64,000 nucleotides of DNA from Escherichia coli (GCF_003790525.1 NZ_CP033635.1); one strand, 5' to 3'; shown: positions 12,158 through 24,626, counted from the stretch's first letter. The notes: generated by a model not told the origin, from the letters alone. Program-made: numbers and translations.

Positions 12158-12294
12158 ATGGCAAAGCCGATCATCACGCTCAATGGCCTAAAAATCGTCA
12201 TTATGTTGGGAATGCTGGTCATTATTCTCTGCGGTATCCGTTTTGCCGCCGAGATCATCGTGCCGTTTATTCTCGCATTATTTATTGCTGTTAT
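12158..12294 (+). pseudogene. tqsA: 5' fragment of tqsA (AI-2 exporter), first ~46 codons; reading frame then runs into element DNA and stops after 7 foreign codons
   Basis: ATG at 12158 encodes [45 protein letters not shown]; the remainder of the gene resumes in frame at 23729. Confidence 0.85.
12286..12294. repeat. attL core (direct repeat 'tgctgttat')
   Basis: Identical 9-mer at 23720-23728; chromosomal tqsA sequence on the left, element-specific sequence on the right. Confidence 0.7.
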
Positions 12295-12365
12295 ATATAA
12301 CTTATTTCGCTTAACTAATTGATTTAATTAAATAATTTGCACTACAAAAAGTGCCAAAAATCGCA

Positions 12366-12391
12366 AATTAACTACACCATTAACTACACCG
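12366..12391. repeat. 26-bp element-end repeat 'aattaactacaccattaactacaccg' (tandem 'ttaactacacc'), candidate integrase arm-type site, left end
   Basis: Exact 26-bp copy at 23567-23592 next to the int start; both copies in direct orientation just inside the element ends. Confidence 0.6.
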
Positions 12392-13466
12392 TTCGGCGCA
12401 CTGTATGAAACAACGTGGAACAAATAGACACAAGCGGCAGGCTATACCGTTATCATTTTTCAGCTATCCGTCATGAAGCTGGTGGATGATCACGGATAAC
12501 CAGGCATCTACAGCGCCTTAAAAAGCTGAACCCGACAAACATTTCTGCTTATCGGGTCCGATCGCTCTTTCTACTCGTGGCAGATGAGTTTACTAGGAAG
12601 GGGGGAACATTGTATCAGGCTATCCCCTTTCTGTGCTGATTCGGCTGGTGAATGATCTACTTGGGGCACTACACTTTTCGGATAGTGCGGGTATCCGGTT
12701 TTCTGCCTCATCGAATTTTAAGCCTTCTGACGGCCTGTATATCATTTCCTGTGGAGTTGCCGCCCTGATAGCGAATACTGCGGCAGCATGTGATTTACCC
12801 CCCGTTCTGTTGATGTTTGATGTGGCTGGTTGATGTGCTGCCATGTTTTCCGCCAATGGTGGAAAAGCCCACCAGCGCAACGCAGGACGCATAAAACCAT
12901 TGCGATGACTCTGGACGCAAAACCACGTTTAACGATGTTTTGCACTGAACCAGAATACTGTTCGTTTTTGTCTCGATGTCCGTACGTATTACGTCCGCAC
13001 CTAATCCGGCATCATGCCCACCAGCGTAACGCATTTTTTTAATTTCGTGGCTGTGCGTCCACCAGCTACGCCGGAATGGGGTATTCCGTTTCAACGGAAC
13101 AGGTATGACGAACATAATCGCACCTTCTCCCGAAAACGGTGCGACCTGCATCATCGAAATGGTGATTCAGCTACTCGGCGATTTTCACCATTCAGAATCT
13201 GGCGGGTGAGTTATCCAGCTTCCACCAATGGGGGATTCTGGAACAATCAACGGGTTACGCCTTATCAGCAAAAAAGCACATCAACTGTAAAGGAAATCGT
13301 TATGGTTGCTGGTGGGCTGCGTCACCATCATGGTGATGATGCTGTCCAGTCAGCCGGAACGGTTGAACAGGGTGGCTATGGGTCACTCTGTTGTGCGTTA
13401 TTTGCGTGATCCTGGTACGGGGTGACTATCTTTCAGATAGTCGGTTGCCTGGTTACACGAAAAAAT

Positions 13467-13775
13467 TTACTTCCTGCGTTTATCCTGCTTTGTATGCCCG
13501 TGCTGAATGCCCCGCAGTGGATCTTCTTTTTTCAGGTCGATCCCCATGTCCGTTAGTGTTTTTGTGGCGGCGGTTCTTATGGCACAAATCAGGTCTCTTT
13601 CCGGTTCCCGGGTTATGGTTGCCTTCCGGATGCATGCCGTTCGTCGTTCCGTTACATACTGACGCGCTTCATCACTTGCCGCCTGTTTCAGTAACTCACC
13701 CCAGCGATTAGCCGCCCGTCGCCATAAACCTTTCGCTTCCAGTTCTTCCGCTTTGTCATCATGCACCATAAGCAT
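13467..13775 (-). CDS. PerC-family-like putative transcriptional activator (copy 2)
   Basis: N-terminal MVHDDKAEELEAKGLWRRAANRWGEL resembles PerC/Pch activators (recalled) and is a paralog of the 17352-17624 ORF; start chosen at an internal Met. Confidence 0.45.
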   Translation of the reverse strand: MLMVHDDKAEELEAKGLWRRAANRWGELLKQAASDEARQYVTERRTACIRKATITREPERDLICAIRTAATKTLTDMGIDLKKEDPLRGIQHGHTKQDKRRK

Positions 13776-13883
13776 AATCCCATTGATACCTGTTAACTCT
13801 GAATGGTTGGTTTCTGTTCTTTTGATAATTTCCCGCATAGCTTATTGTATGACAGTACTGTCCCACAATAAGGAGTTGCACGC

Positions 13884-14174
13884 ATGAGAATGACTAGGCA
13901 CAAAAAACAGATTCTTGAACTCTACAAACCTGAGTATCGCGATTGGGTGCGGGTGGAGGCCGGAGATCCGCCTTTTGATGTTCGTGGTGTGACAGTGCTG
14001 CTCTATGGTTCCGAATATCGGCGATATCACATAGAGGCAACACGAAGGACGCTAAACGCTATGGTTCGTGATAAGTTGCTGGAGCGTGTGAAAGTCCGTG
14101 AGCCACGTTTTGATGTGCGTATTGGTGGCGATGGTGCGCATTGCACGGTAATCCGCTATGGCCTGGTAAGGTAA
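13884..14174 (+). CDS. hypothetical protein (96 aa), only plus-strand gene in the left half of the element
   Basis: ORF with ATG start; internal duplicated motif PPFDVRGV / PRFDVRIGG; followed by the palindrome 'cagaatgtaaatttacattctg'. No family recognised. Confidence 0.4.
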   Translation: MRMTRHKKQILELYKPEYRDWVRVEAGDPPFDVRGVTVLLYGSEYRRYHIEATRRTLNAMVRDKLLERVKVREPRFDVRIGGDGAHCTVIRYGLVR

Positions 14175-14276
14175 GCCATCGGGTAAATCAGATGATTAAA
14201 TCACCAGAATGTAAATTTACATTCTGCCAGCCACCAGCTACCCTCCTCAAAATTGAGGACCCTTTTTATCAACTGG

Positions 14277-14558
14277 TTACCGCCGCAACCGTTCCGGCTT
14301 CTTCCACTGATAAGTGTTTTTCGCGCTCTCCTGATACATCGCCACGCGTCGACGGTATGCCAGCAACTCTAGTACTCTGATTCGTATGTCGCGCATATCC
14401 ACGCCGTTAAGCTCAATACCATCACGGCGCATTACATCAGCAACAACACGCACATAATTTTCGGCGGTCACGCTGTCCGGCTGCGTGGCCTGTTCGTCAT
14501 GCTGCTGGCTGATTCCGGTAACGCGGCGGATTAATCCCAGTAGTTCGACTTCTGTCAT
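14277..14558 (-). CDS. hypothetical protein (~94 aa) immediately downstream of the cos/terS region
   Basis: ORF-track frame 14277..14756; start moved to the internal Met (MTEVELLGL...) so that it does not overlap the cos-like sequence. Function unknown. Confidence 0.4.
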   Translation of the reverse strand: MTEVELLGLIRRVTGISQQHDEQATQPDSVTAENYVRVVADVMRRDGIELNGVDMRDIRIRVLELLAYRRRVAMYQESAKNTYQWKKPERLRR

Positions 14559-14591
14559 TGTGCCCCCATCGCTCTGATAGTCTGGTGTCGT

Positions 14592-14655
14592 CGGGTCCTT
14601 TCCGGCATGTGGACCCGTTACGGGGCGTCGACCTCGCGCGTTTTCACTATTTATG
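14592..14655 (+). other. lambda-like cos site, copy A (cosN plus flanking sequence)
   Basis: 'cgggtcctttccgg...gttacggggcgtcgacctcgcgcgttttcactatttatgaaaattttt' closely parallels the phage lambda cos junction as I recall it ('...acgggtcctttccggtgatccgacaggttacg|gggcggcgacctcgcgggttttcgctatttatgaaaattttccgg'); the 12-mer gggcgtcgacct at 14623-14634 differs from the lambda cohesive end at one base. Confidence 0.75.
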
Positions 14656-14671
14656 AAAATTTTTCGGGATC

Positions 14672-14770
14672 CATGTCCGGTTTCTCTGCAAGTTAACCAT
14701 ATGAAAAATATAAAAACATGCTTTCCATGAACCGGACATGCGCAAAAAACAGACACTAAAACCGGACATC
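14672..14770. promoter_or_regulatory. cosB-like array: three 'ccggacat' repeats (one inverted, two direct) with an AT-rich spacer, candidate binding sites for the element's Nu1-like protein
   Basis: 'catgtccgg' at 14672-14680, 'accggacatg' at 14731-14740, 'accggacatc' at 14761-14770; located on the cosB side of cos copy A, where lambda has R3-I1-R2-R1. Confidence 0.5.
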
Positions 14771-14837
14771 GAACCAGTTAACCGAAAGTGTGCACAAATC
14801 ACATTCATTGCTGCGAGTGATTAACAAGTTATCGGCT

Positions 14838-15272
14838 TTACTGTTCTGTATCGGCTGATTGCTCCATGCTGGCACGGCGAACGCTTACGGCATGACGCCA
14901 CCCAGCCAGAAAGCCAGCCATTTTATTTCGTGCCTTGCTCACATCTTCCGGTGAATAGCCGTAAATATGCAAACCTTCATCAAATCGATGTTCTGTTTCT
15001 TCACTGGAGTACTCGTCACGCTCAGATGAAAGCAGCCTCGCAAACATAATTTTTTCCAGCGCACTGGTTTCTACGTGATATCCGATGGTCTGAAGATGGC
15101 TTTTACCTGAATACCAAAGCAATGTATGCCCGATGTGATAACCGCCAGACTTTCCGCGATCCGCATTAAGATACGGCATCCCCTGTTTGGTCCATGCGCG
15201 AATAGTGGTTCTGTTAACCTTGAAATGTTCAGCTATTTCCTGCTGACTTACAAAACAAGCTTTATCAATCAT
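14838..15272 (-). CDS. terminase small subunit Nu1-like DNA-binding protein (possible packaging-specificity/redirecting factor)
   Basis: N-terminus QQEIAEHFKVNRTTIRAWTKQGMPYL parallels lambda Nu1 KKQLADIFGASIRTIQNWQEQGMPVL (winged HTH); C-terminal half unlike Nu1; flanked by cos-like sites. Confidence 0.65.
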   Translation of the reverse strand: MIDKACFVSQQEIAEHFKVNRTTIRAWTKQGMPYLNADRGKSGGYHIGHTLLWYSGKSHLQTIGYHVETSALEKIMFARLLSSERDEYSSEETEHRFDEGLHIYGYSPEDVSKARNKMAGFLAGWRHAVSVRRASMEQSADTEQ

Positions 15273-15339
15273 AATGTTACCTTAACTGCATGGTTAAATA
15301 TCAATCAAGTGGTGGTGGTGTCACCTTCACGGAAAAACG

Positions 15340-15403
15340 TCATAAATAGCGAAAACGTGCGAGGTCGACGCCCCGTAACGGGTCCACATGCCGGAAAGGA
15401 CCC
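15340..15403 (-). other. lambda-like cos site, copy B (inverted copy of A, cosN plus flank, without the 'ccggacat' array)
   Basis: Reverse complement matches copy A at 62 of 64 positions; lies ~70 bp upstream of the Nu1-like gene start on the same strand. Confidence 0.7.
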
Positions 15404-15404
15404 G

Positions 15405-15430
15405 CAAAAAAAGCCGGATTTCTCCGGCCT
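15405..15430 (-). terminator. rho-independent terminator after the head-gene cluster (minus strand)
   Basis: Minus-strand hairpin ggccggagaaatccggcc followed by a T-run; related hairpin motif at 17324-17345. Confidence 0.5.
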
Positions 15431-15502
15431 TGTCTCAGATGGTTTTCAGTATGCGATAGATGTCGCCGTCATCGCCCTGGTTTGTGCCATCGTTCCCCCT
15501 GC

Positions 15503-15838
15503 TTATCGGGCCAGCGGCTGAACGGATACGCCGGAACCCGCAAAGGCGGCGCATTTTTTCGCATCGGTGTCGACGCTCTCAGGCCAGTTAACGGCGGCAA
15601 TATTGAATATCCCCGTCTTGTAACACTGTGCTGATTTCTGCTTTGACGTGTCCACAGGGTACGAGGTCAGATAAACAGCCTTGCCAGATTCCTTACCATC
15701 CCACGCCTTAAACTCGCCATTGTCTGCCAGCATCAGCGGGGTAAATTCCTGAATAACGCCAGCATCAGCGGCAAAATGTACCAGCGTCGTGGATACCTGT
15801 TGGCTGCCTGAAAATAACTCAATGTATGGAGCGTCCAT
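15503..15838 (-). CDS. head decoration protein, lambda gpD-like
   Basis: 111 aa; motifs TPLMLADNGEFKAWDG, YKTGIF, NWPE and KKCAAFAG parallel lambda gpD (TPLMLDTSSRKLVAWDG, YKSGTF, LWPE, KKRTAFAG) as recalled. Confidence 0.7.
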   Translation of the reverse strand: MDAPYIELFSGSQQVSTTLVHFAADAGVIQEFTPLMLADNGEFKAWDGKESGKAVYLTSYPVDTSKQKSAQCYKTGIFNIAAVNWPESVDTDAKKCAAFAGSGVSVQPLAR

Positions 15839-15849
15839 AGAATCCCCCG

Positions 15850-16905
15850 TTAAGCAATTTTGACGGTAACAAATTTGCGAATATCTGCCGGTACAGGCTG
15901 CGGTGCGCTGTGCGTCTGCACGTACTCAATCGCCGGATCGCCGTCCTCAATCCAGTTTTTCGGGTAGTACATGTTTTGCGTTGCGCCCGTTCTTACCGCT
16001 TCCTGATCCATAATCGCACCATATGCCACCAGCCCTTTATTGTTGGTGTTACCCAGGACCAGCAAATCAGGCTCAAGGAAATATTTTTCGGTCCCGTCGC
16101 TGTCAGTGTATTTGCCGGAATAGACGATAAGGGCCAGATCACCAAGATAGCCTTTAAAGCTCACCACTTCGCCCAGGTTTTTACAGGCCAGCTCGGCGGC
16201 GGATTCTGATCCACGGGAAAGATCGTACAGTTCACGGAATTTTTTAAAGCTGCGTAATGTGCGCCATACCTCACCGCCCATAATCATGACGTTGGCGGGG
16301 CAACCTGCCTGATCAGCATAAAGCTCGATGTCATAGATTGGGTCGTGCATGTCTTTATCCTGCTGGGACCATTTTTTACCACTGGCCTGCTGTATGATGC
16401 AGTTTTCCGGTATTTTCCAGTCGATTTCATAGCGTTCTATGCCTTCGCCCTCAATGATGTTTTTTCCGGTCGTTACCGCATTCACCGCCAGCCATTCCAC
16501 GCGCGCCTTAATGGCGTTTATCTGGCGGCGCATGTTGCCAGTAATCAGGCGCATACGGCGGTAAGTTGGATCGTTAAGCTGTGCCGGATCTTCTCCATCC
16601 ATGCGCATGATGGTCTTTGTTGGATCGATTTCGTGCTTTGGCTTCATGTAGCCTGGTTTAATCGTGCTGGTTTCGTACCCTTTATCGCGCTGGACCTGAC
16701 TACCCACCATAGGAGAACAGAACGCTGACATCGTAACCTCTTCAATGTCCAGGGTGTCCAGCATGATGTTTTGGGTGTTGAAGGTCGCCACGTTCGGGAA
16801 AAACAGCGTGGTAAACAGCGGACTAAATTTATATTCCGAAATATCCCCGCGATTCAGGTACGCGAAAAGCTGGTTAGTTGTAAGTGCCTTTGCTTTGCCT
16901 GTCAT
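15850..16905 (-). CDS. major capsid protein, lambda gpE family
   Basis: 351 aa; YKFSPLFTTLFFP and PGYMKPKHEIDP parallel lambda gpE FKFDPLFLRLFF and PGYVKPKHEVNP; similar length to gpE. Confidence 0.75.
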   Translation of the reverse strand: MTGKAKALTTNQLFAYLNRGDISEYKFSPLFTTLFFPNVATFNTQNIMLDTLDIEEVTMSAFCSPMVGSQVQRDKGYETSTIKPGYMKPKHEIDPTKTIMRMDGEDPAQLNDPTYRRMRLITGNMRRQINAIKARVEWLAVNAVTTGKNIIEGEGIERYEIDWKIPENCIIQQASGKKWSQQDKDMHDPIYDIELYADQAGCPANVMIMGGEVWRTLRSFKKFRELYDLSRGSESAAELACKNLGEVVSFKGYLGDLALIVYSGKYTDSDGTEKYFLEPDLLVLGNTNNKGLVAYGAIMDQEAVRTGATQNMYYPKNWIEDGDPAIEYVQTHSAPQPVPADIRKFVTVKIA

Positions 16906-17111
16906 TATTCACCTCCGTGAACCTGATTGATACCCAGCGCCGCACGCAAATAGGTGCGCACCTGCCAGCCTGTTGACGGCTCAACCATCGCCAGCGGATC
17001 AAGTCCTGCCGCAATGCCTGCTTTTACATTCTGCTGGTGGCGTTCCTTGAGCGCCTCCACGATGTCGGGGCTTATGTAGACCGTCACCCCGCCTTTTTTC
17101 TCTTCTGCCAT
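16905..17111 (-). CDS. hypothetical protein (68 aa), first gene of the head cluster
   Basis: ORF with ATG start, stop overlaps the capsid gene start; no family recognised. Confidence 0.4.
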   Translation of the reverse strand: MAEEKKGGVTVYISPDIVEALKERHQQNVKAGIAAGLDPLAMVEPSTGWQVRTYLRAALGINQVHGGE

Positions 17112-17323
17112 AGTCAGAAATTCCTCTTTGACTTAAAAAATCATAACTGGATGTTCATCCAGTCCTGATTATAATCATGATTGCATTTTGCGCAACAATA
17201 TTGAGTTACGTTGCAAATTATGAAATGATTATCCCGATCATGTGTGTCAGTTCACCATAAAAAACCTCGTATACAAAAGCCCCATAAGCCCCCTGTGACC
17301 TTATCGGGCTTTTTTTAGGCGTA

Positions 17324-17345
17324 AAAAAGCCGGATTGCTCCGGCT
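17324..17345 (-). terminator. rho-independent terminator downstream of the PerC-like gene (minus strand)
   Basis: Minus-strand hairpin gccggagcaatccggc followed by TTTTTT. Confidence 0.5.
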
Positions 17346-17351
17346 GTGTGC

Positions 17352-17624
17352 TCACTTCTGCGGGTAGTTGCGCCATATTGCTTTGCCAATACCAGCTATC
17401 CCCATTTGTTTTTCAGTGCGATTAACTGACCTTTTCAGAGCGCCTAAATCATCCGGCGGCTCCGGTGGCCTCTGTGCCTTACGGATACATTCCGCGCGAC
17501 GCATTGCCACCTGTTCGCGCTCCTTGTCTGTCTCCACCAGCCTCATAACTTCACCCCATCGCGCCGCCGCCCTCCGGTAAAAGCCTTTTGCCTCGAGTTC
17601 CTCCGCTATGCGGTCATGTACCAT
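17352..17624 (-). CDS. PerC-family-like putative transcriptional activator (copy 1)
   Basis: MVHDRIAEELEAKGFYRRAAARWGEV...; paralog of the 13467-13775 ORF; start placed at the internal Met just after the ssb stop. Confidence 0.45.
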   Translation of the reverse strand: MVHDRIAEELEAKGFYRRAAARWGEVMRLVETDKEREQVAMRRAECIRKAQRPPEPPDDLGALKRSVNRTEKQMGIAGIGKAIWRNYPQK

Positions 17625-17634
17625 CGTCACCCCC

Positions 17635-18045
17635 TCAGAACGGAATATCATCACCGTAAGGGTCATCGCCTCCCGCTGGTGGCTGATTACCCTGTGTGCC
17701 TGTGGTTTTGCGTCTGTTCCCGCCAGGACGTGCCGCACGGGCACTGATTACGCTGTCTGCAATAACCTGCCAGCCCTGCCGCGTTTCCCCGTTCTGTCCG
17801 GTCCACTGGCTGACCTGCATCGTGCCGGATACGCTGGCAACGTCGCCTTTTTGATGTTTAGCCAGAAAGTCGGCCTGTTTGCCAAATGCGATGACCGATA
17901 ACCATAACGTCGCCTGTCCGTCCTGTGCCTGGCCGCATGGTAAAGATACCGCCATACGCGCCAGCGTCATCGGTGTACCCTTACTGGTCTGTTTTACCTG
18001 CGGGTCGTCCACCAGCCGCCCGTAAGCTGCTATCTGTGCTGTCAT
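17635..18045 (-). CDS. ssb: single-stranded DNA-binding protein (SSB)
   Basis: 136 aa with OB-fold-like core, Gly/Pro/Gln-rich linker and the acidic C-terminal tail ...DDIPF typical of SSB. Confidence 0.7.
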   Translation of the reverse strand: MTAQIAAYGRLVDDPQVKQTSKGTPMTLARMAVSLPCGQAQDGQATLWLSVIAFGKQADFLAKHQKGDVASVSGTMQVSQWTGQNGETRQGWQVIADSVISARAARPGGNRRKTTGTQGNQPPAGGDDPYGDDIPF

Positions 18046-18284
18046 GCTGTCTGCTCTCCGGTTTTAACGTTGATGGTTGTTACCTGTTCTGCTTCGGCAA
18101 TATCCCGCTCTGTCAGCGTGGCAAAGTTTGCCGCCGTCGTTGTCATGAATGCGCTTATCAGTTCGGGATGTGCTTTCGCGTATCCTTCCCCTGTGTTGCG
18201 GTCGATGATTTTTATCGCCACCCTCAGCCAGTGCTCTGTAAGGTCAATGGCGCGGTGATCTGTCTTTTTGTGGCTTACCTTCAT
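18042..18284 (-). CDS. hypothetical protein (80 aa)
   Basis: ORF in the replication module, overlaps ssb start by 4 nt (coupled); no family recognised. Confidence 0.45.
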   Translation of the reverse strand: MKVSHKKTDHRAIDLTEHWLRVAIKIIDRNTGEGYAKAHPELISAFMTTTAANFATLTERDIAEAEQVTTINVKTGEQTA

Positions 18285-18287
18285 GAT

Positions 18288-18656
18288 TTACTCCAGAGTA
18301 CCGCTATTGCTGCTGTCGTTAACCGGATACCAGGCAAATACCATCGATTCACCACAGTGAACAAACTTCTTATCCGGCAGATAAAGGCACTCGCACATTC
18401 CCTCATCAGGACTATGCGGACTCATGCCCAGCTCACTGGTCAGCACGGGTAAGATTTCGCGGCAGGTGTTCCCCGCACCGAAATAATCAACCTCACAAAG
18501 CGCCCATGCAGCAATCGGGCTGTACCATTCCGTGCCGTCGTCGTCTTTGAACTTAGCCCACCAGCCAGGAAGGGCAGTTGATATGCTCAGTGTTTCAATT
18601 TCAGTGTTCATAAATTTACCTTCGGTATTTTGTCCTGCTGTTCGATTTTTATTCAT
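18288..18656 (-). CDS. hypothetical protein (122 aa or shorter)
   Basis: ORF directly downstream of the iteron region; Cys-containing; no family recognised. Confidence 0.45.
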   Translation of the reverse strand: MNKNRTAGQNTEGKFMNTEIETLSISTALPGWWAKFKDDDGTEWYSPIAAWALCEVDYFGAGNTCREILPVLTSELGMSPHSPDEGMCECLYLPDKKFVHCGESMVFAWYPVNDSSNSGTLE

Positions 18657-18860
18657 TGCTCACCATCTCTCACTTTTACTACTCACTTTTTAAAGCGTCT
18701 CGCTTCGTCTCACTTGAGATTTTTGTGTTTTGTATGTGCATGTTTCATAAGTGTTTTTTCACTGCTCACTTTTGAGCATGTATACAGGTGAGAAAGTGAG
18801 TAATTGTGTTAATATTTTGTAAAAACCTCACCATTACTCACTTTTACTACTCACTTTTTA
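18657..18860. repeat. iteron array, candidate replication origin ('ctcactttt' repeated ~7 times, one inverted, around an AT-rich core)
   Basis: Copies at 18669, 18682, 18709 (variant), 18765, 18793 (inverted), 18837 and 18850; 'ctcacttttactactcacttttta' occurs twice; lies immediately 3' of the rep ATPase gene. Confidence 0.6.
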
Positions 18861-20264
18861 CAGTGGTCCTACATCATCACCATCAATGTAAATCACGGCG
18901 TCTTTTTCCAGTTTGGCTAACCATCGCCGCATATTTTTCACGTCATACCCAAGCCGTTTCATGTCATCACGTAACAGCGGGATCGTGCACTTGTCGCCGT
19001 TCTGTGTGCGTGAACGGATGCACCCCCATAGCGCGGTATGGTTTTCCGTCTTGTTGCCTGCCTCCTCGATGCGCTCCAGTTCAGCAGGGGCGCGGGGAAC
19101 GTCAATCACCACCATGGACACAATTTCTTCGCCATCTGTATCGGTGAACACCTCCACGCTTTTAAGGTCGTATGCACTCTCTTTTGGCTCCTCTGCGTCC
19201 TTCATCTTCGTACACGCCGCAACCAGTGCTGTAACGTCTGAATTTTCCCTGCTGATTCGGTACTCTGCATCAAGCGCGGCACGGAATGCACTGGAACCAC
19301 GCGCCCCCTTTGTTTCATCCTTGCCGGAATGGTGAACCACCAGCACCGTGGCCCCTGTGGCCTGCTTTATCGCGTCACACCCCTGGATAAATGCGCCCAT
19401 ATCACGGGAATCATTTTCATCATTCCCACCAAAGCAACGGGCCAGCGTGTCGATCACAATCAGCCGCACATTTTCGCCCGTTCTGCTCTTAACAAGTCCG
19501 GCAGTCCTGATAACCTGCTCCACATAGTCAGGCGATGCAGGGAAAACAGGCGCGTTAATGATGCACAAATCTGTAACCACCTTGTCGTGGGTTATCTCCC
19601 ACGCCTTAACGCGGCGTTTTACGCCCATGCTGCCTTCACCAGCGATATAGATAACCGCACCCTTACTTACCCTGCGGCCTCCCCATGCCATACCTGTGGC
19701 AACATGGCACGACCAGGAAATGGCGAGGAACGATTTATAAGAACCGCTGGCCCCGTAGGTGCTGCATAATGACTCAGCCGGAATAAGCCCCTTAATGACG
19801 TAGCTTTGCTGCGCATCGAATCCCTCAGAACCCCATGAGATGGGAAGTGTGATTTTTCGCTTTCCGCCATTCATGACCAGGCTTTCCCCTCTCTCCCATG
19901 TTTCCCGTAGTCGTGGTAGCTGGTCGCTCCAGTCCTCCAGCAGTTCGAAATTTTCAGAAAGTAGCCGCGCCTCCTGGACTCCGGCGATCGCCAGTTTTGT
20001 GGCAATGGTCAGCATCTGCATATCGTCCAGGTTTCCGGCGCGTATGACCTTTACCCTGTATCGTCCTTCATCAACAATCTGTAAGTTGTCCAGTTCGCTT
20101 AACTGATAACGGCCCAGATAAACCGGAGGGATGGGATCGCCTGCTTTTTTGGCCTGTGCAATCATGTAATGTTCTGCAAAGGAGTGAGCATTATCACCCG
20201 CAAAAATAACCGCCTCAGTGTGTTTATCTTTCGGTAACAGTTTTACGTTCGGTGCAAGTTTCAT
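18858..20264 (-). CDS. replication protein with RecA-like P-loop ATPase domain (RepA/DnaB-like, satellite pri-rep type)
   Basis: 468 aa; Walker A YGASGSYKS, Walker B-like RLIVIDTL, HHSGK motif; C-terminal region possibly DNA-binding; iterons directly downstream. Confidence 0.65.
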   Translation of the reverse strand: MKLAPNVKLLPKDKHTEAVIFAGDNAHSFAEHYMIAQAKKAGDPIPPVYLGRYQLSELDNLQIVDEGRYRVKVIRAGNLDDMQMLTIATKLAIAGVQEARLLSENFELLEDWSDQLPRLRETWERGESLVMNGGKRKITLPISWGSEGFDAQQSYVIKGLIPAESLCSTYGASGSYKSFLAISWSCHVATGMAWGGRRVSKGAVIYIAGEGSMGVKRRVKAWEITHDKVVTDLCIINAPVFPASPDYVEQVIRTAGLVKSRTGENVRLIVIDTLARCFGGNDENDSRDMGAFIQGCDAIKQATGATVLVVHHSGKDETKGARGSSAFRAALDAEYRISRENSDVTALVAACTKMKDAEEPKESAYDLKSVEVFTDTDGEEIVSMVVIDVPRAPAELERIEEAGNKTENHTALWGCIRSRTQNGDKCTIPLLRDDMKRLGYDVKNMRRWLAKLEKDAVIYIDGDDVGPL

Positions 20265-20548
20265 TTCTTACCCCCTGCGACCAGCATTTCACGGATTTTG
20301 CGGATATAACTTGCAGCACGTTTCTGATTAACGGCTTTACGATGGCCCACCAGCGTGAAATCACGCCGGAACTGATAAACAGGCATAACGCAGTCATATT
20401 CGTAGCCTTCACGGCGGTAAGTGATGCGACGTTCCTCCACGCCCTTAATCATTACCGTGCCGCCGTAGTTATCACGGAAAATATCGCCGGGACGGATTTC
20501 AGGACGAGCGGGGCCGCTGGCATTAACGCCAGAATTTTTATTTTTCAT
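20261..20548 (-). CDS. hypothetical protein (95 aa), translationally coupled upstream of rep
   Basis: ORF overlapping the rep start by 4 nt; basic; no family recognised. Confidence 0.45.
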   Translation of the reverse strand: MKNKNSGVNASGPARPEIRPGDIFRDNYGGTVMIKGVEERRITYRREGYEYDCVMPVYQFRRDFTLVGHRKAVNQKRAASYIRKIREMLVAGGKK

Positions 20549-20553
20549 GTTTT

Positions 20554-20781
20554 TTATTCTCCGGTGTGCTGTTCTTTATATCTGTCGTGAATTGCCATCA
20601 CTGTATTTAATTCATTAATAACAGCCGTTAATAGCGTACGCACGGCAGAAAACATCATTGAATCAGATTCATCGCCACTTTCCTGCACATCAATTAAATT
20701 AAGTAGTAATGCGTCCATTTCCTTTGCGCGGATTAATGCCTTTTCACAATGAAAAATAACACCAAAGGGTATTTTATTCAT
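20554..20781 (-). CDS. hypothetical protein (~75 aa; ORF-track frame extends to 20823)
   Basis: First gene of the minus-strand replication operon; start uncertain (MNKIPFGV... versus the upstream Met). Confidence 0.4.
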   Translation of the reverse strand: MNKIPFGVIFHCEKALIRAKEMDALLLNLIDVQESGDESDSMMFSAVRTLLTAVINELNTVMAIHDRYKEQHTGE

Positions 20782-21060
20782 GACTCCCCTCCTGACGGAT
20801 ACGGGCGGCGAATACAGCGACACAACCGGACGGGCAACGGTTACGCGCTTCGCGTTCCGTCCAGGCGGTCACGTGGATAATTTGAGATTCTCCGGCACTC
20901 AGTGCCAGAAAACGCCACACAAAGGCGGTTTGTGTGTGCGCTAGTCGTGGGGTATGCTGTGTTCCAGCCATAATCGTTACTCCTGTTAACGGTTTGGTTA
21001 GACGCCCTGCATGTGTTACAGCACTGCGGGGCGTTGTCTTTTTAACGGCTTTCGTGATAG

Positions 21061-21104
21061 GGTGTACACCTATCAAGCAAAAACATAACGCTATAGGTGT
21101 ACAC
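21061..21104. promoter_or_regulatory. perfect 12-bp inverted repeat (gtgtacacctat ... ataggtgtacac), candidate operator abutting a small regulator gene
   Basis: Read directly from sequence; the 3' half ends 1 nt before the ATG at 21105. Confidence 0.5.
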
Positions 21105-21299
21105 ATGTCAACAGTTATTAAGCGAGATAAAAAACCAAAGGGAACAGGAAAAGCCCCCCCATTCCATATGCGAATAGCTCCAGAACTGAAAGAGCAGTTT
21201 GATAATGAGGCCAGCAATGATGGGGTAAGCCTAGCCAACTGGCTTAAAGAGTTGGGGCGCGCCGAACTAAAGCGACGCGGCATTGAACCTAAAGGCTGA
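21105..21299 (+). CDS. small basic protein (64 aa), possible ribbon-helix-helix/YlcI-YnfO-like prophage regulator
   Basis: MSTVIKRDKKPKGTGKAPPFHMRIAPELKEQFDNEASNDGVSLANWLKELGRAELKRRGIEPKG; family assignment from memory only; divergent from the replication operon. Confidence 0.4.
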   Translation: MSTVIKRDKKPKGTGKAPPFHMRIAPELKEQFDNEASNDGVSLANWLKELGRAELKRRGIEPKG

Positions 21300-21302
21300 T
21301 GT

Positions 21303-21426
21303 ATGACTGAAAAGCAGACCGATAACAAACTTTCTCTACCAGAGAATAAACCAGCAGGCTTCTTACCAAGAAAAATCCTTGATGAGATCAAACGCCGCCA
21401 GCGCCGCAAGGCCAAAGAGCAGGAAT
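21303..21426 (+). CDS. possible small protein (41 aa, Lys/Arg-rich C-terminus)
   Basis: ATG 4 nt after the preceding stop; MTEKQTDNKLSLPENKPAGFLPRKILDEIKRRQRRKAKEQE; followed by a strong hairpin terminator. Too short for the ORF track. Confidence 0.25.
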
Positions 21427-21460
21427 AGCCCACCAGCAAGCCAGCACACTGATCACATTG

Positions 21461-21490
21461 GCCACCGTGACAGGTGGCCTTTTCTTTGCC
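21461..21490 (+). terminator. rho-independent terminator (ggccaccgtgacaggtggcc + T-rich tract)
   Basis: Perfect 7-bp stem with 6-nt loop followed by ttttctttg, just after the 41-codon ORF. Confidence 0.55.
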
Positions 21491-21752
21491 CGTTATCCGG
21501 CAATTGTGGCGCTTCGCCACACGGTTGATATAATTCCCCTGCTCAGATTCATTTTTTGCGCGGCAGGTAAATTGTTCAGAAAGGCGGCTCCTTATCGGGG
21601 CCGCTTTTTTTATGTCTGAAAAACCGCGATTTTGTTGTTTTTCAGTTTCACCAGGCCGAACGAAGCCCCGCCCATGTTCGGGCGTATATCCAGTCTTCAT
21701 GGTTAAATCTCTGTATTAGTGGATGGGTGGCGGCTGTGTGCCGCCAGTCTTT

Positions 21753-21941
21753 TTAGTGAACTGCCTCGCAGCTTTCCTTCCATGCCAGAACTTCGGATAA
21801 AGACCAGCCAACGGAACGACCGCCCAGCTTACGCCGTGATGGGAATTGTCCGGCCTTTTCCAGGCGGTAGCGGCATGAGCGGCTAAGGCCTGTTAGCTTT
21901 TCGCATTCTTTTTCACGTATAAAGCGATCAGTGCTTAACAC
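21753..21941 (-). CDS. alpA: AlpA-family (Phage_AlpA) transcriptional regulator
   Basis: 62 aa; ...EKLTGLSRSCRYRLEKAGQFPSRRKLGGRSVGWSLSEVLAW... matches the AlpA HTH signature; adjacent to int. Confidence 0.75.
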   Translation of the reverse strand: MLSTDRFIREKECEKLTGLSRSCRYRLEKAGQFPSRRKLGGRSVGWSLSEVLAWKESCEAVH

Positions 21942-22315
21942 TATTGCCCCCTTTCGTTTCTTAAAGAGTTATTTCGTGTTCTATTGCGTTGGGATGTGTC
22001 TGATTGTGTCAGGGTGATTCAGAGTTGGCAAATGTTGGTGGCGGGTATTTTACAGAAACGGGGTGATTTTAATAAAAATCATTTTAATTCAGTATTATGC
22101 AAAGGCATAAAATCTCGTTTTATGCCTTTTTTCTCACTATTTAAAGCGTTATTCGCTAATGTATAAAAAACCAGTTGAGCATTAAAAATCAGCAACTTAT
22201 AAATCTGTATACTTTTTGACCTCTTGTTCGTGGTTGTTTCACGTTGTTGTGTATTGTTGCACGTTGTATCTGTGCACTTATCCAGTATGCGCATACTGAA
22301 AAAACACGAAAAAAA

Positions 22316-23563
22316 TTATTTTCTTCTGGCTACTGGTAGCGTGGTTACGTTTTCATGTGCTCCCGCCAGTATCTCCAACCGCTCCACCCACATATCCAGC
22401 GCATTGCGTTTCGCATCCAGATAACGGGAATGATTATAAACTCGCTGCATTCCTGGCATCTGGTGGCCTGTAAGCTGCTCCACGACGTGAGGATCCACGC
22501 CTAAATCGTTCAGCATCGTTGTAAAGGTGCGCCGGATGTCATGCAGTGACCATTGAGGGTGTTTTAGCCTCCTGTGCGCTAATCTGCCGTACTGCGATAC
22601 GCTGGCCTCCTGTTTCACTTCCCCCAGTAATAAGCCCGTGTGCCTGTTCTGCTCCACCAGCCGCGTGACGAACGGCAGGATCGCTTCCGGTATGGGCCGG
22701 AATATTGCGACCTTCGTTTTGCTGTGCTCCTTCGGAACGGTCCAGAGCATTTCCGTGAAATCCCACTCCCCGATCTCCGATAACCTCAGTTCTACCGTCC
22801 TGGCTCCGAAGACAATCAGGAGGCGGATTAGTGCGACGTAGTAAGGGGAAAATATTTTTTTGTCCAGTGCCTGCAATAATTCGCCCAGTTCTTTGGTGCT
22901 TAAGACACGTTCGCTTATATCCGGTTTTTTCCCAACGTCCGCCACGTTCAGATCGTCCAGAACGTTGCTGATTGCATAGCGCCGCCTCCGGCAAAACTTA
23001 AGCGCCTGTTTGCACGCCTGTAGCACGAATCCGGCAGTAACAGGCGTTCGCTTTGCCACCCGATCAAAACAGGCCAGCCAGTGCCGTAGCTCGCATTTAT
23101 CCAGCGGCATAGCACCAATGTGCTGTATTACGTGATTATTAAGTCGCCTTTTCAGGGCGATATAATCCACGCGGTTTTCCTTTACGTAAGACTCAAGCCA
23201 GTAGGTGAGCGCATCTCCAACCGTTACAGGCTTTAACGCTTCCTGCATGGTGTAATTCATCTCATGACGTGGATTTTTCCCCTCAGCCAGCCATGCGCGA
23301 CACTGGGCGGCTTTTTCCCTGGCTGATTTCAGGCTCAGATCAGGATAATTTCCCAGCTTAATACGTTCCGGTCGTGTCTCTCTTCCCGTTCCGGCCCTGT
23401 AAGTGAAATACCAGGTTAAAAGGCCGCTGGTTGAATGCCTGACGCTCAGATTTCCACCGTCATTAAGAAAGGCTGTTTTTTGGGCGGGTGTGCCGTTGAT
23501 TTTCCTTAGCTGTGTATCGCTCAGCTTGTTAAGTGCTCTGGTCATAATTTTGAATCCGGTCAT
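22316..23563 (-). CDS. int: tyrosine site-specific integrase (P4-type)
   Basis: ~415 aa; N-terminal arm-binding-like region, C-terminal catalytic motifs (HDIRRTF, GHQ..VYNHSRY); located at the element's right end next to the arm-type repeat. Exact start uncertain (GTG/ATG/ATG cluster). Confidence 0.85.
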   Translation of the reverse strand: MTGFKIMTRALNKLSDTQLRKINGTPAQKTAFLNDGGNLSVRHSTSGLLTWYFTYRAGTGRETRPERIKLGNYPDLSLKSAREKAAQCRAWLAEGKNPRHEMNYTMQEALKPVTVGDALTYWLESYVKENRVDYIALKRRLNNHVIQHIGAMPLDKCELRHWLACFDRVAKRTPVTAGFVLQACKQALKFCRRRRYAISNVLDDLNVADVGKKPDISERVLSTKELGELLQALDKKIFSPYYVALIRLLIVFGARTVELRLSEIGEWDFTEMLWTVPKEHSKTKVAIFRPIPEAILPFVTRLVEQNRHTGLLLGEVKQEASVSQYGRLAHRRLKHPQWSLHDIRRTFTTMLNDLGVDPHVVEQLTGHQMPGMQRVYNHSRYLDAKRNALDMWVERLEILAGAHENVTTLPVARRK

Positions 23564-23566
23564 CAC

Positions 23567-23592
23567 AATTAACTACACCATTAACTACACCG
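23567..23592. repeat. 26-bp element-end repeat (same as 12366-12391), right end, immediately upstream of int
   Basis: Exact 26/26 identity with the left copy. Confidence 0.6.
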
Positions 23593-23719
23593 ATCGTTGC
23601 ACAAAGGGCTACAACGTGAAACAAGCTGGAACAAGAAAAATCACAAATTTGTTTATAATCAAAAACATAATGCACAACCTGAAACATTATGAAACGGCAA
23701 AAAACACTAATTGATAAAG

Positions 23720-23728
23720 TGCTGTTAT
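23720..23728. repeat. attR core (direct repeat 'tgctgttat')
   Basis: Identical to 12286-12294; element sequence on the left, tqsA sequence on the right. Confidence 0.7.
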
Positions 23729-24626
23729 TCTTAACCCGCTGGTGCAACACATGGTCCGCTGGCGAGTGCCGCGTGTACTGGCGGTGTCGATTTTGATGAC
23801 CATCATCGTGATGGCGATGGTGTTGCTGTTAGCTTATCTGGGTTCCGCGCTCAACGAGTTGACGCGGACGTTACCGCAATATCGCAACTCTATTATGACG
23901 CCGCTGCAAGCGATTGAACCGTTGTTGCAACGCGTAGGGATTGATGTCTCAGTTGACCAACTGGCGCATTACATTGATCCGAACGCGGCAATGACGTTGC
24001 TCACCAACTTATTGACGCAGTTATCTAATGCCATGTCATCAATCTTTTTATTGCTGCTGACGGTGCTGTTTATGTTGCTCGAAGTGCCACAATTGCCCGG
24101 AAAATTTCAGCAAATGATGGTGCGTCCGGTTGAAGGGATGGCGGCGATTCAGCGTGCGATTGACAGTGTGTCTCATTATCTGGTGCTGAAAACAGCCATC
24201 AGCATCATCACCGGCCTGGTCGCCTGGGCGATGCTCGCCGCACTCGATGTTCGCTTCGCTTTTGTCTGGGGATTGCTGGCCTTTGCGCTTAATTACATCC
24301 CTAATATTGGTTCAGTTCTCGCGGCAATCCCCCCTATCGCTCAGGTACTGGTGTTTAATGGCTTCTACGAAGCGTTGCTGGTGCTGGCGGGATATCTGCT
24401 AATTAATCTGGTCTTCGGCAATATTCTGGAGCCGCGCATCATGGGACGTGGGCTGGGGCTTTCCACATTGGTGGTATTTTTGTCGTTGATTTTTTGGGGA
24501 TGGTTGTTAGGACCGGTGGGTATGCTGCTTTCCGTGCCGTTAACAATTATTGTCAAAATTGCGCTTGAACAAACAACGGGAGGTCAAAGCATCGCCGTTC
24601 TGTTAAGCGATCTCAACAAAGAGTGA
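23729..24626 (+). pseudogene. tqsA: 3' portion of tqsA (AI-2 exporter, AI-2E/PerM family), separated from its 5' end by the element
   Basis: In-frame continuation ([12 protein letters not shown]...) of the fragment ending at 12294; upstream frame closed by tga/taa in element DNA; only an internal GTG/ATG could restart translation. Confidence 0.8.

What the first reader, a model, noticed from the sequence alone, without database searches (positions are those of the whole stretch)
18042..20823. Cluster of small unassigned ORFs in the replication module
Four small ORFs (18042-18284, 18288-18656, 20261-20548, 20554-20823) are tightly packed or translationally coupled with rep and ssb, and none shows a family signature I can recognise. 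In satellites, genes of this kind often encode helper-interference or anti-defence functions.
Basis: inference. Interest (0 to 1): 0.45.

Follow-up and report, generated by a model that had tools for sequence, protein, structure and literature searches.

The report
Small genes in a satellite's replication operon
The four small ORFs are real genes in the replication operon of a known type of E. coli phage satellite. One belongs to the published RgdR regulator family, and the other three are catalogued genes of unknown function, so the finding is largely ordinary.

Summary
The window carries an 11.4-kb EcCICFT073-type phage-inducible chromosomal island (PICI) inserted in tqsA. All four ORFs lie in its leftward operon: icd-like, ORF4, ORF3, repA, ori, ORF2, ORF1, ssb, perC.

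They are real genes, with dN/dS of 0.13-0.63, Shine-Dalgarno sites and conserved homologues. Two starts were over-extended: ORF4 is 20554-20781 and ORF2 is 18288-18611.

They are four unrelated families, not one system.
- **ORF3** is a DUF4222 protein (Pfam E=3.5e-25) and an orthologue of RgdR, a published EHEC regulator of LEE and motility. The model is a basic SH3/Tudor/KOW-like barrel plus a C-terminal helix. The gene overlaps the replicase start by 4 nt in 11 of 13 islands.
- **ORF4** is a fast-diverging acidic, presumably helical protein found directly upstream of rgdR in 7 of 9 E. coli islands.
- **ORF1** overlaps the ssb start in 9 of 9 islands and matches about 30% of complete E. coli genomes.
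- **ORF2** is rare (37 of 5,426 genomes), very acidic and beta-rich, with no fold match. It is always the first gene after the origin, behind four replicase types.

Nothing supports an anti-defence or interference role, though ORF2 and ORF4 remain candidates. Three of the four are backbone genes of the island. Interest is low.

The parts
20554..20781 (-). ORF4 (75 aa, pI 5.0). Divergent member of a 75-80 aa gene family found directly upstream of rgdR/DUF4222. The true start is the ATG at 20781, not the GTG at 20823.
   Evidence: phrog_2196 at E=2.8e-11 from residue 15. Exact 75-aa database protein P0141. Full-length alignment to CFT073 C_RS06975, Sakai ECs1580 and others at 20-39% identity. 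AGGAGG site and ATGAATAA overlap with the icd stop. dN/dS 0.36-0.41.
20261..20548 (-). ORF3 (95 aa, pI 10.2). DUF4222 protein and RgdR orthologue carrying PGD instead of RGD at residues 20-22. Its stop overlaps the repA start.
18858..20264 (-). RepA-type replicative helicase (468 aa, AAA_25). Its N-terminal ~135-aa domain is shared with the primase-type and DUF927-type satellite replicases.
   Evidence: PF13481 at E=8.5e-43. N-terminal alignment with 25 invariant columns across 8 replicases of 3 catalytic types.
18657..18863 (.). Probable replication origin. AAAGTGAG iterons in both orientations and two 37-nt direct repeats flank an AT-rich core.
   Evidence: The position and organisation match the E. 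coli PICI origins described in PMC6092414.
18288..18611 (-). ORF2 (107 aa, pI 4.2, net charge -12, 5 Trp, 5 Cys). Rare accessory beta-rich protein and first gene after the origin.
18042..18284 (-). ORF1 (80 aa, presumably helical). Conserved gene whose stop overlaps the ssb start.
   Evidence: phrog_1231 at E=1.8e-45. 158 homologue clusters. 1,637 of 5,426 E. coli genomes. 88% identity to CFT073 C_RS06990 and 78% to Sakai ECs1586. 4-nt overlap with ssb in 9 of 9 islands. dN/dS 0.27-0.63.
17635..18045 (-). Satellite SSB (136 aa) with a C-terminal DDIPF tip.
   Evidence: PF00436 at E=3.7e-16. Sequence.
17352..17624 (-). PerC-family regulator and last gene of the operon. A terminator-like hairpin follows at 17328-17345.
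   Evidence: PF06069 at E=4.5e-39. Terminator-like site.
20774..20971 (-). Icd-like gene (65 aa) and first gene of the operon. It is hidden inside a spurious 308-aa mechanical ORF.
   Evidence: 95% identity to the PGAP 'host cell division inhibitor Icd-like protein' of strain CM2.
21082..21111 (-). Sigma-70-like promoter (TTGACA, 18 nt, TATGTT) upstream of icd. Candidate operon promoter.
   Evidence: This is a consensus match only.
12295..23719 (.). The whole 11.4-kb PICI inserted in tqsA. The att core TGCTGTTAT lies at 12286-12294 and 23720-23728.

Best explanation
The four ORFs are four unrelated small genes of one leftward transcription unit: promoter-like site 21111-21082, icd-like, ORF4, ORF3, repA, ori, ORF2, ORF1, ssb, perC, terminator-like site 17345-17328. 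The unit belongs to an EcCICFT073-type PICI. In EcCICFT073 the island's cycle depends on the helper-induced activator AlpA. That this operon is under AlpA control here is inferred, not shown.

Three of the four are backbone genes of the satellite life cycle, not cargo.

1. ORF3 is an RgdR/DUF4222 orthologue. It is a very basic protein with a predicted SH3/Tudor/KOW-like barrel and a basic C-terminal helix. RgdR itself binds DNA weakly and non-specifically and changes transcription (LEE1 up, motility down). I infer that in the island it is a DNA- or RNA-polymerase-associated cofactor, made in step with the replicase, that promotes expression of, or transcription through, the rep-ori region. Effects on host genes would then be spill-over.
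2. ORF4 is the fast-evolving acidic gene that precedes rgdR. I infer it is a modulator or specificity partner.
3. ORF1 is translationally coupled to the satellite SSB in every island examined. I infer it is an SSB-associated replication accessory protein.
4. ORF2 is a rare, strongly acidic beta-rich accessory protein that always occupies the first slot after the origin, whatever the replicase family. It is the best candidate for an inhibitor-type function.

Shown here: gene reality, family membership, synteny, coupling and predicted folds. Inferred: every biochemical role.
For: - Operon anatomy and coupling.
- Island identity: Rpp 96%, major capsid 95% and decoration protein 96% identical to CFT073. 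AlpA dependence and origin organisation of EcCICFT073 come from PMC6092414.
- ORF4 family: directly upstream of rgdR in 7 of 9 E. coli loci at only 28-54% identity over the aligned part.
- ORF1: 4-nt overlap with ssb in 9 of 9 islands, 1,637 of 5,426 genomes, and no match in phage records.
- ORF2: 37 of 5,426 genomes, the same post-origin position behind four replicase types, pI 4.2, and the lowest dN/dS of the four.
Against: - No biochemical role is demonstrated for any of the four in a satellite.
- This allele has P at residue 20, where RgdR function depends on the residue.
- PMC6092414 tested a cloned pri-ori segment of EcCICFT073 for plasmid maintenance and describes the origin as functional. 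This suggests the small ORFs are not essential for initiation, though I could not confirm which ORFs that clone contained.
- ORF1, ORF2 and ORF4 have no homologue in 50,697 phage records, and ORF1 has only 5 hits among 72,556 plasmid records. Satellite-specific, helper-directed roles therefore remain possible.
- The promoter and terminator are consensus matches only, and fewer promoter-like sites were found than in shuffled sequence.
Confidence: 0.5

Rival explanations
1. One reading: some or all of the ORFs encode helper-interference or anti-defence proteins, meaning small inhibitors aimed at helper-phage or host-defence proteins.
For: ORF1, ORF2 and ORF4 have no match in GenBank phage records, and ORF1 (the only one searched there) has almost none in plasmids, so they appear specific to satellites. 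ORF2 (pI 4.2, net charge -12) and ORF4 (pI 5.0) are acidic, like many protein or DNA-mimic inhibitors. ORF2 is patchy, found in 37 of 5,426 genomes, and crosses replicase families and genera like an accessory gene. The slot between icd and rgdR varies from 1 to 4 genes between near-identical islands, and ORF4 evolves fast. In a Salmonella island the gene in the ORF4 position is a P4-epsilon-type helper derepression protein, PF25738.
Against: No PADLOC, Pfam or PDB similarity to any known defence or anti-defence protein. ORF4 shows no detectable similarity to the derepression family, with hhalign probability below 1%. ORF1, ORF3 and the ORF4 family are conserved backbone genes present in about 17-30% of complete E. 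coli genomes by DNA match. A cf-PICI inferred to carry homologues of these three is reported not to block its helpers. Interference was studied for the capsid and decoration homologues c1499 and c1500 in the 2018 paper, and the title and abstract of the 2019 paper describe redirection of helper packaging.
Confidence: 0.2
2. The ORFs are dedicated replication factors required for firing of the island's origin, for example an origin-binding or helicase-loading partner (ORF3, ORF4) and an SSB loader (ORF1, ORF2).
Confidence: 0.15
3. The selected function is regulation of host genes. Together with the two PerC homologues, ORF3 rewires chromosomal virulence and motility programmes, as RgdR and Pch do in EHEC.
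For: RgdR activates LEE1 and represses motility, and variants exist in strains that lack LEE. PerC/Pch homologues lie in the same operon. The EcCIMP1 paper reports that a PICI represses the LEE.
Against: This covers only ORF3. The allele here has P20 instead of the R20 that matters for T3SS activation. The strict coupling to replicase genes, also seen in phages of non-LEE hosts, points to a role in the element's own cycle. Whether the gene is expressed from an uninduced island is unknown.
Confidence: 0.1
4. The ORFs are chance open frames or decaying pseudogenes.
For: Chance ORFs are abundant here: 118 ORFs of at least 40 aa in 15 kb. One neighbour, the 308-aa ORF at 20774-21700, is indeed spurious.
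Against: dN/dS is 0.13-0.63 for all four, with many synonymous changes. Lengths and positions are conserved across genera. Shine-Dalgarno sites are present. All four match PHROG families and ORF3 also matches Pfam.
Confidence: 0.02

Closest known systems
RgdR (ECs1581, OI-51/Sp7 of E. coli O157:H7) and its homologues c1493 (CFT073) and ECED1_1787 (ED1a). Pfam DUF4222.
   Same: ORF3 scores 87.8 bits on PF13973. It is 61% identical to ECs1581, with a nearly identical core at residues 21-68, and K35 is conserved. It occupies the same position, overlapping the start of the island replicase. The ED1a homologue is reported in an island between ydgD and ydgG (= tqsA), which is the integration site seen here.
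   Different: Residue 20 is Pro (RPGD) rather than Arg (RGD) in RgdR or Cys in the inactive ED1a variant. The protein is 95 aa rather than 99, with a shorter linker. The 5' third of the gene is recombinant relative to the closest island, strain CM2. The downstream replicase is a RepA/AAA_25 helicase rather than a DUF927 or primase type.
EcCICFT073, the prototype E. coli PICI (PMC6092414, PMC6739421)
   Same: Same gene order: int, alpA, icd-like, small ORFs, DUF4222, replicase, iteron origin, ORF1 homologue, ssb, perC, 68-aa gene, capsid homologue, decoration homologue, Rpp. Identities are ORF1 88%, ssb 98%, capsid homologue 95% and Rpp 96%.
   Different: The replicase core differs (RepA helicase against D5_N/Pox_D5 primase-helicase) and so do the iterons. 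ORF2 is absent from EcCICFT073. The slot between icd and rgdR holds one gene here against four in CFT073. The integration site is tqsA here, whereas the CFT073 island lies next to phoQ.
P4 left operon: orf88/vis, cI, epsilon, orf151, orf106, alpha, crr
   Same: Parallel architecture: an AlpA/Vis-type regulator, then small genes of mostly unknown function, then the replicase, then a cis-acting replication region. In a Salmonella island the ORF4 position is occupied by an epsilon-family gene, PF25738.
   Different: No sequence relationship was shown. ORF4 family against epsilon gives hhalign probability 0.35%. DUF4222 against orf151 gives 9.8%, from one short motif only. Against orf106 the probability is 0.05%.
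RNA-polymerase-binding Tudor/KOW-like domains: UvrD and PcrA C-terminal domains, the CarD N-terminal domain, and NusG/Spt5/RfaH KOW

Membership tests
DUF4222 / RgdR family (ORF3) | Match to Pfam PF13973 above the gathering score | tested here: met
   87.8 bits against a cut-off of 27, E=3.5e-25, covering profile positions 1-52 of 53.
DUF4222 / RgdR family (ORF3) | Small basic protein of about 99 aa with a conserved core at residues 20-68, encoded directly upstream of the replicase of a P4/PICI-like island | tested here: met
   95 aa, pI 10.2. The core is nearly identical to ECs1581. The stop overlaps the repA start.
DUF4222 / RgdR family (ORF3) | RGD motif at residues 20-22, important for T3SS activation by RgdR | tested here: not met
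   The sequence is R19-P20-G21-D22. In the family alignment, RPGD-type sequences are more common than RGD. The motif therefore defines the EHEC functional variant, not the family.
DUF4222 / RgdR family (ORF3) | Activates LEE1/T3SS, represses motility and binds DNA weakly | not testable with these tools
   Experimental phenotypes reported in PMC3378721.
EcCICFT073-type PICI (the element that carries the ORFs) | Integrase plus AlpA, a replicase followed by an iteron origin, an Rpp packaging-redirection gene, a size of 10-15 kb and a specific att site | tested here: met
   int, alpA, RepA, iterons at 18657-18863, Rpp 96% identical to the CFT073 protein, 11.4 kb, and the att core TGCTGTTAT within tqsA.
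EcCICFT073-type PICI (the element that carries the ORFs) | Induction, replication and high-frequency transfer by a helper phage | not testable with these tools
   Requires experiments.
P4 epsilon 'Derepression' family PF25738 (considered for ORF4) | Sequence or profile similarity to PF25738 or to P4 epsilon | tested here: not met
   No Pfam hit for ORF4 or for 15 relatives. hhalign probability is 0.13% against the Salmonella member and 0.35% against P4 epsilon.
PC4-like ssDNA-binding fold (considered for ORF2) | Significant structural superposition on PC4/YdbC-type proteins | tested here: not met
Known anti-phage defence proteins (PADLOC-DB) | Match to any of the 5,027 models | tested here: not met
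   No family at E<=0.1 for the four ORFs or for five neighbouring small proteins.
TAL-effector repeat (raised by the PDB profile search for ORF2) | At least one individually significant repeat match | tested here: not met
   Whole-sequence E-values of 1e-15 to 1e-11 but zero stretches pass on their own. The score sums a short 'LPVL..(x)G(M/L).P' motif over 17 or more repeats, and ORF2 is predicted all-beta.

The most novel reading that the evidence does not exclude
DUF4222/RgdR proteins are a widespread but unrecognised class of Tudor/KOW-like cofactors. On this reading they bind RNA polymerase or nucleoid DNA and license transcription through, or activation of, the adjacent replication origin. 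That would explain why the gene is welded to replication initiators of five unrelated families in satellites and lambdoid phages. It would also explain why ectopic RgdR gives effects that, from my own knowledge of hns mutants, resemble loss of H-NS silencing (LEE up, motility down, Congo-red binding up). Separately, the acidic beta-rich ORF2, which has no fold match, could be a new inhibitor protein aimed at a helper or host factor.
Probability: 0.15. Interest if true: 0.55.

Novelty: new member of a known kind. Interest (0 to 1): 0.25.

Why it matters
The result mostly tidies annotation. It places an anonymous ORF cluster inside a well-described PICI type and links one ORF to the published regulator RgdR.

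A modest wider point also emerges. About 30% of complete E. coli genomes match ORF1 and ORF3 at the DNA level. The experimental PICI and cf-PICI papers I read do not report testing these replication-module ORFs. The rigid rgdR-replicase and ORF1-ssb couplings, and the fixed post-origin slot of ORF2, give three concrete and cheap genetic experiments. If RgdR turns out to act through RNA polymerase or the nucleoid, that would explain how satellites cross-talk with virulence regulons.

Tried and rejected
- **PDB sequence and profile searches** for all four ORFs gave nothing significant. The ORF2 profile hit TAL effectors at E=1e-15, but no single stretch was significant. This is a repeat-summation artefact of a short LPVL motif.
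- **NCBIfam and PADLOC** gave no hits for the four ORFs.
- **tblastn against 50,697 phage records** found no match for ORF1, ORF2 or ORF4. ORF1 against plasmids gave 5 hits, two of them in Mb-sized records that cannot be ordinary plasmids.
- **ORF4 as a P4-epsilon-like derepression protein** was rejected by Pfam and hhalign.
- **DUF4222 as a relative of P4 orf151 or orf106** is not supported. Only a short 'P..RFLREFT' motif matched (probability 9.8%), and Pfam found nothing.
- **The 104-aa gene that precedes ssb in a Salmonella island** is not detectably related to ORF1.
- **Rfam** scan of the whole island found no RNA family at E<=0.1.
- **Literature.** I found no experiments on ORF1, ORF2 or ORF4 homologues in the PICI and cf-PICI papers I read.
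- **Not done.** Only two structure jobs were available, so ORF1 and ORF4 were not modelled.
Full report
**Setting**

The window is E. coli chromosome. Between 12295 and 23719 lies an 11.4-kb island inserted in tqsA. The N-terminal tqsA remnant starts at 12158 and the rest of the gene is at 23742-24626, followed by pntBA. A 9-nt core, TGCTGTTAT, is present at both junctions.

Only 3 of 5,426 complete E. coli genomes hold at least 80% of the region. Many more carry mosaic relatives.

Read on the minus strand, the gene order is:
- int (22316-23566) and alpA (21753-21941)
- a divergent plus-strand gene at 21105-21299, whose CM2 counterpart PGAP names a HicB-family antitoxin
- icd-like (20774-20971)
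- ORF4, ORF3, then a RepA/AAA_25 helicase (18858-20264)
- a 200-bp iteron region
- ORF2, ORF1, ssb, perC
- a 68-aa gene, a capsid homologue and a decoration homologue
- a 144-aa helix-turn-helix protein

That last protein is 96% identical to the EcCICFT073 protein in the equivalent position, which I take to be Rpp. The element is therefore an EcCICFT073-type PICI with a different replicase core. In that prototype the cycle is switched on by helper-induced AlpA, and the origin lies immediately 3' of the replicase as two iteron sets flanking an AT-rich stretch (PMC6092414). The same anatomy is seen here at 18657-18863.

**Checking the observation**

All four ORFs are present and tightly packed. 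ATGA-type overlaps occur at icd/ORF4, ORF3/repA and ORF1/ssb. The ORF4/ORF3 and ORF2/ORF1 gaps are 5 and 3 nt. GGAG-type ribosome-binding sites are present.

They are real genes:
- Against homologues from other islands, dN/dS is 0.27-0.63 (ORF1), 0.13-0.22 (ORF2), 0.30-0.47 (ORF3) and 0.36-0.41 (ORF4). For comparison, ssb gives 0.06-0.23.
- Each matches a PHROG family.

Two coordinates need correcting:
- ORF4 starts at the ATG at 20781, giving 75 aa. An identical 75-aa protein is on record, and the PHROG match starts at residue 15.
- ORF2 most likely starts at 18611, giving 107 aa. Conservation in 20 homologues starts there, and PGAP agrees.

A promoter-like site (21111-21082) upstream of icd and a terminator-like hairpin (17345-17328) after perC bracket the unit. 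These are consensus matches only.

**ORF3 (20261-20548)**

This ORF does have a recognisable family. It is Pfam DUF4222, at 87.8 bits and E=3.5e-25.

The family includes RgdR (ECs1581) of E. coli O157:H7 island OI-51/Sp7. RgdR is a 99-aa, pI-10 protein that:
- activates the LEE1 promoter and type III secretion;
- represses motility;
- increases Congo-red binding;
- binds DNA weakly and non-specifically (PMC3378721; review PMC10877973).

That paper also names c1493 of CFT073 and ECED1_1787 of strain ED1a as homologues. The ED1a copy lies in an island between ydgD and ydgG (= tqsA), which is the site used here.

ORF3 is 61% identical to ECs1581. The core at residues 21-68 is almost identical and the functionally important K35 is conserved. 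Residue 20 is Pro, where RgdR has Arg and the inactive ED1a variant has Cys.

The AF2 model has mean pLDDT 77.5, and 90-94 over residues 21-60. It is a five-stranded SH3-like barrel followed by a basic helix.

Synteny is the strongest clue:
- The DUF4222 stop overlaps the replicase start by 4 nt in 11 of 13 islands examined. The replicase may be RepA/AAA_25, D5_N/Pox_D5 or DUF927.
- In SfII/SfIV/e14-like phages a DUF4222 ORF (68.7 bits) ends inside the start of the O replication gene.

A factor tied to five unrelated initiators is unlikely to be a specific loader. I infer a generic DNA- or RNA-polymerase-associated cofactor for the rep-ori region.

**ORF4 (20554-20781)**

ORF4 is acidic (pI 5.0). 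I assume it is helical, but it was not modelled.

It aligns over its full length, at 20-39% identity, with the gene directly upstream of rgdR in CFT073 (C_RS06975), Sakai (ECs1580), strain 042, AR_0085, TUM1886 and TUM9812. That is 7 of 9 E. coli loci. So the position is conserved while the sequence diverges much faster than the rgdR core.

The slot between icd and rgdR holds 1 to 4 genes in otherwise near-identical islands. In strain CM2, ORF4 is replaced, leaving only a 3' remnant. Most of the 907 genomes with a DNA match hit only the last 36 nt of the gene, which is the junction with rgdR. Only 139 genomes cover at least 80% of it.

A Salmonella island has a P4-epsilon-type derepression gene (PF25738) in the same position. 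ORF4 shows no detectable similarity to that family.

**ORF1 (18042-18284)**

ORF1 is an 80-aa protein, presumably helical, with a very conserved core: 30 invariant columns in 19 sequences. Its distribution is:
- 158 homologue clusters, mostly from E. coli, Shigella and Citrobacter;
- DNA matches in 1,637 of 5,426 complete E. coli genomes, with up to 6 copies per genome;
- no match in phage records, and only 5 hits among plasmid records.

It is 88% identical to CFT073 C_RS06990 and 78% to Sakai ECs1586. Its stop overlaps the ssb start in 9 of 9 islands. The SSB ends in the partner-binding DDIPF tip. I infer an SSB-associated role. No fold or profile evidence exists for it.

**ORF2 (18288-18611)**

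This is the odd one out. It has only 20 homologue clusters, named as E. coli, Salmonella, Citrobacter or Morganellaceae where a source gives an organism. It matches 37 of 5,426 E. coli genomes and is absent from CFT073, Sakai Sp7 and strain 042.

Wherever it occurs, it is the first gene 250-490 bp after the replicase. This holds behind RepA, DUF927, CFT073-type primase and D5-type primase genes, in PICIs and in capsid-forming PICIs.

This profile fits an accessory, possibly inhibitor-type protein. That is inference only.

**Assessment**

The cluster is not a system. It is four unrelated small genes of the replication operon of a known satellite type.
- Three are backbone genes of E. coli PICIs and cf-PICIs.
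- One is rare cargo in a fixed slot.

The anti-defence or interference idea has no positive support:
- PADLOC finds nothing.
- The cf-PICI EcCIEDL933 is reported not to block its helpers. I infer, without verification, that it corresponds to OI-51/Sp7.

Essential replication roles are also doubtful. A pri-ori clone of EcCICFT073 was tested for plasmid maintenance and the origin is described as functional. I could not confirm whether that clone contained c1493.

The finding is therefore largely ordinary. ORF3 is a new allele of a published family, and the other three are members of catalogued families of unknown function.

Noticed in passing
L002 2438-2656 (Shigella phage SfIV, KC814930) and L019 4502-4681 (E. 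coli K-12 MG1655, NC_000913.3 1204001-1204180): An unannotated DUF4222 ORF (PF13973, 68.7 bits) lies out of frame inside the 3' half of ymfM, which is annotated 'cell division inhibitor YmfM' in the e14 prophage. It ends just inside the start of the O/ymfN replication gene. A clone of the ymfM region may therefore also carry most of this second gene.
   Followed up: partly
window 19860-20264 (RepA residues 1-135); L013 4478-4900, L014 4016-4438, L007 4496-4918 and others: Satellite replicases with three different catalytic cores (RepA/AAA_25, D5_N/Pox_D5 and DUF927) share a homologous N-terminal domain of about 135 aa. Identity is 38-66%, with 25 invariant columns in 8 sequences, and there is no Pfam match. 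The conserved unit thus seems to be DUF4222 plus this N-terminal domain, with the helicase core and iterons swapped behind it.
   Followed up: partly
window 18657-18863: An iteron-rich probable origin. It has two 37-nt direct repeats (18659-18695 and 18827-18863, 92% identical) and numerous AAAGTGAG-type repeats in both orientations around an AT-rich core. The longer (122-aa) version of ORF2 would start immediately next to the last iteron.
   Followed up: yes
window 20774-21700: The 308-aa mechanical ORF is spurious. It spans the real 65-aa icd-like gene (20774-20971), the regulatory intergenic region, and the antisense of a plus-strand gene at 21105-21299 whose CM2 counterpart PGAP names a HicB-family antitoxin.
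   Followed up: yes
window 20548-20975 against L001 9549-10289 (strain CM2): The slot between icd and rgdR is a recombination hotspot. The otherwise 99%-identical CM2 island has two different genes plus a pseudogene remnant of the ORF4 3' end. Other islands have 3-4 genes there. The breakpoint on one side lies inside the first ~30 codons of ORF3.
   Followed up: partly
window 12366-12391 and 23567-23592: A 26-nt direct repeat, AATTAACTACACCATTAACTACACCG (itself a tandem of ATTAACTACACC), lies near both island ends, inside the att core TGCTGTTAT at 12286-12294 and 23720-23728. These may be integrase arm-type sites.
   Followed up: no
window 12300-14560: The distal accessory region holds a second PerC homologue (13467-13769) and several hypothetical genes: 12795-13115 (-), 13206-13409 (+), 13884-14174 (+) and 14277-14558 (-). 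The three of these that were scanned had no PADLOC match. Their function is unknown.
   Followed up: no
L007 7311-8294 and 9354-9881; L016 4420-4950; L017 3825-4292: In the DUF927-type islands that carry ORF2 homologues, the genes after it often include a ProQ/FinO-family RNA chaperone. In Salmonella there is also a second tyrosine recombinase and a HigB toxin. None of these is present in the window's island.
   Followed up: no
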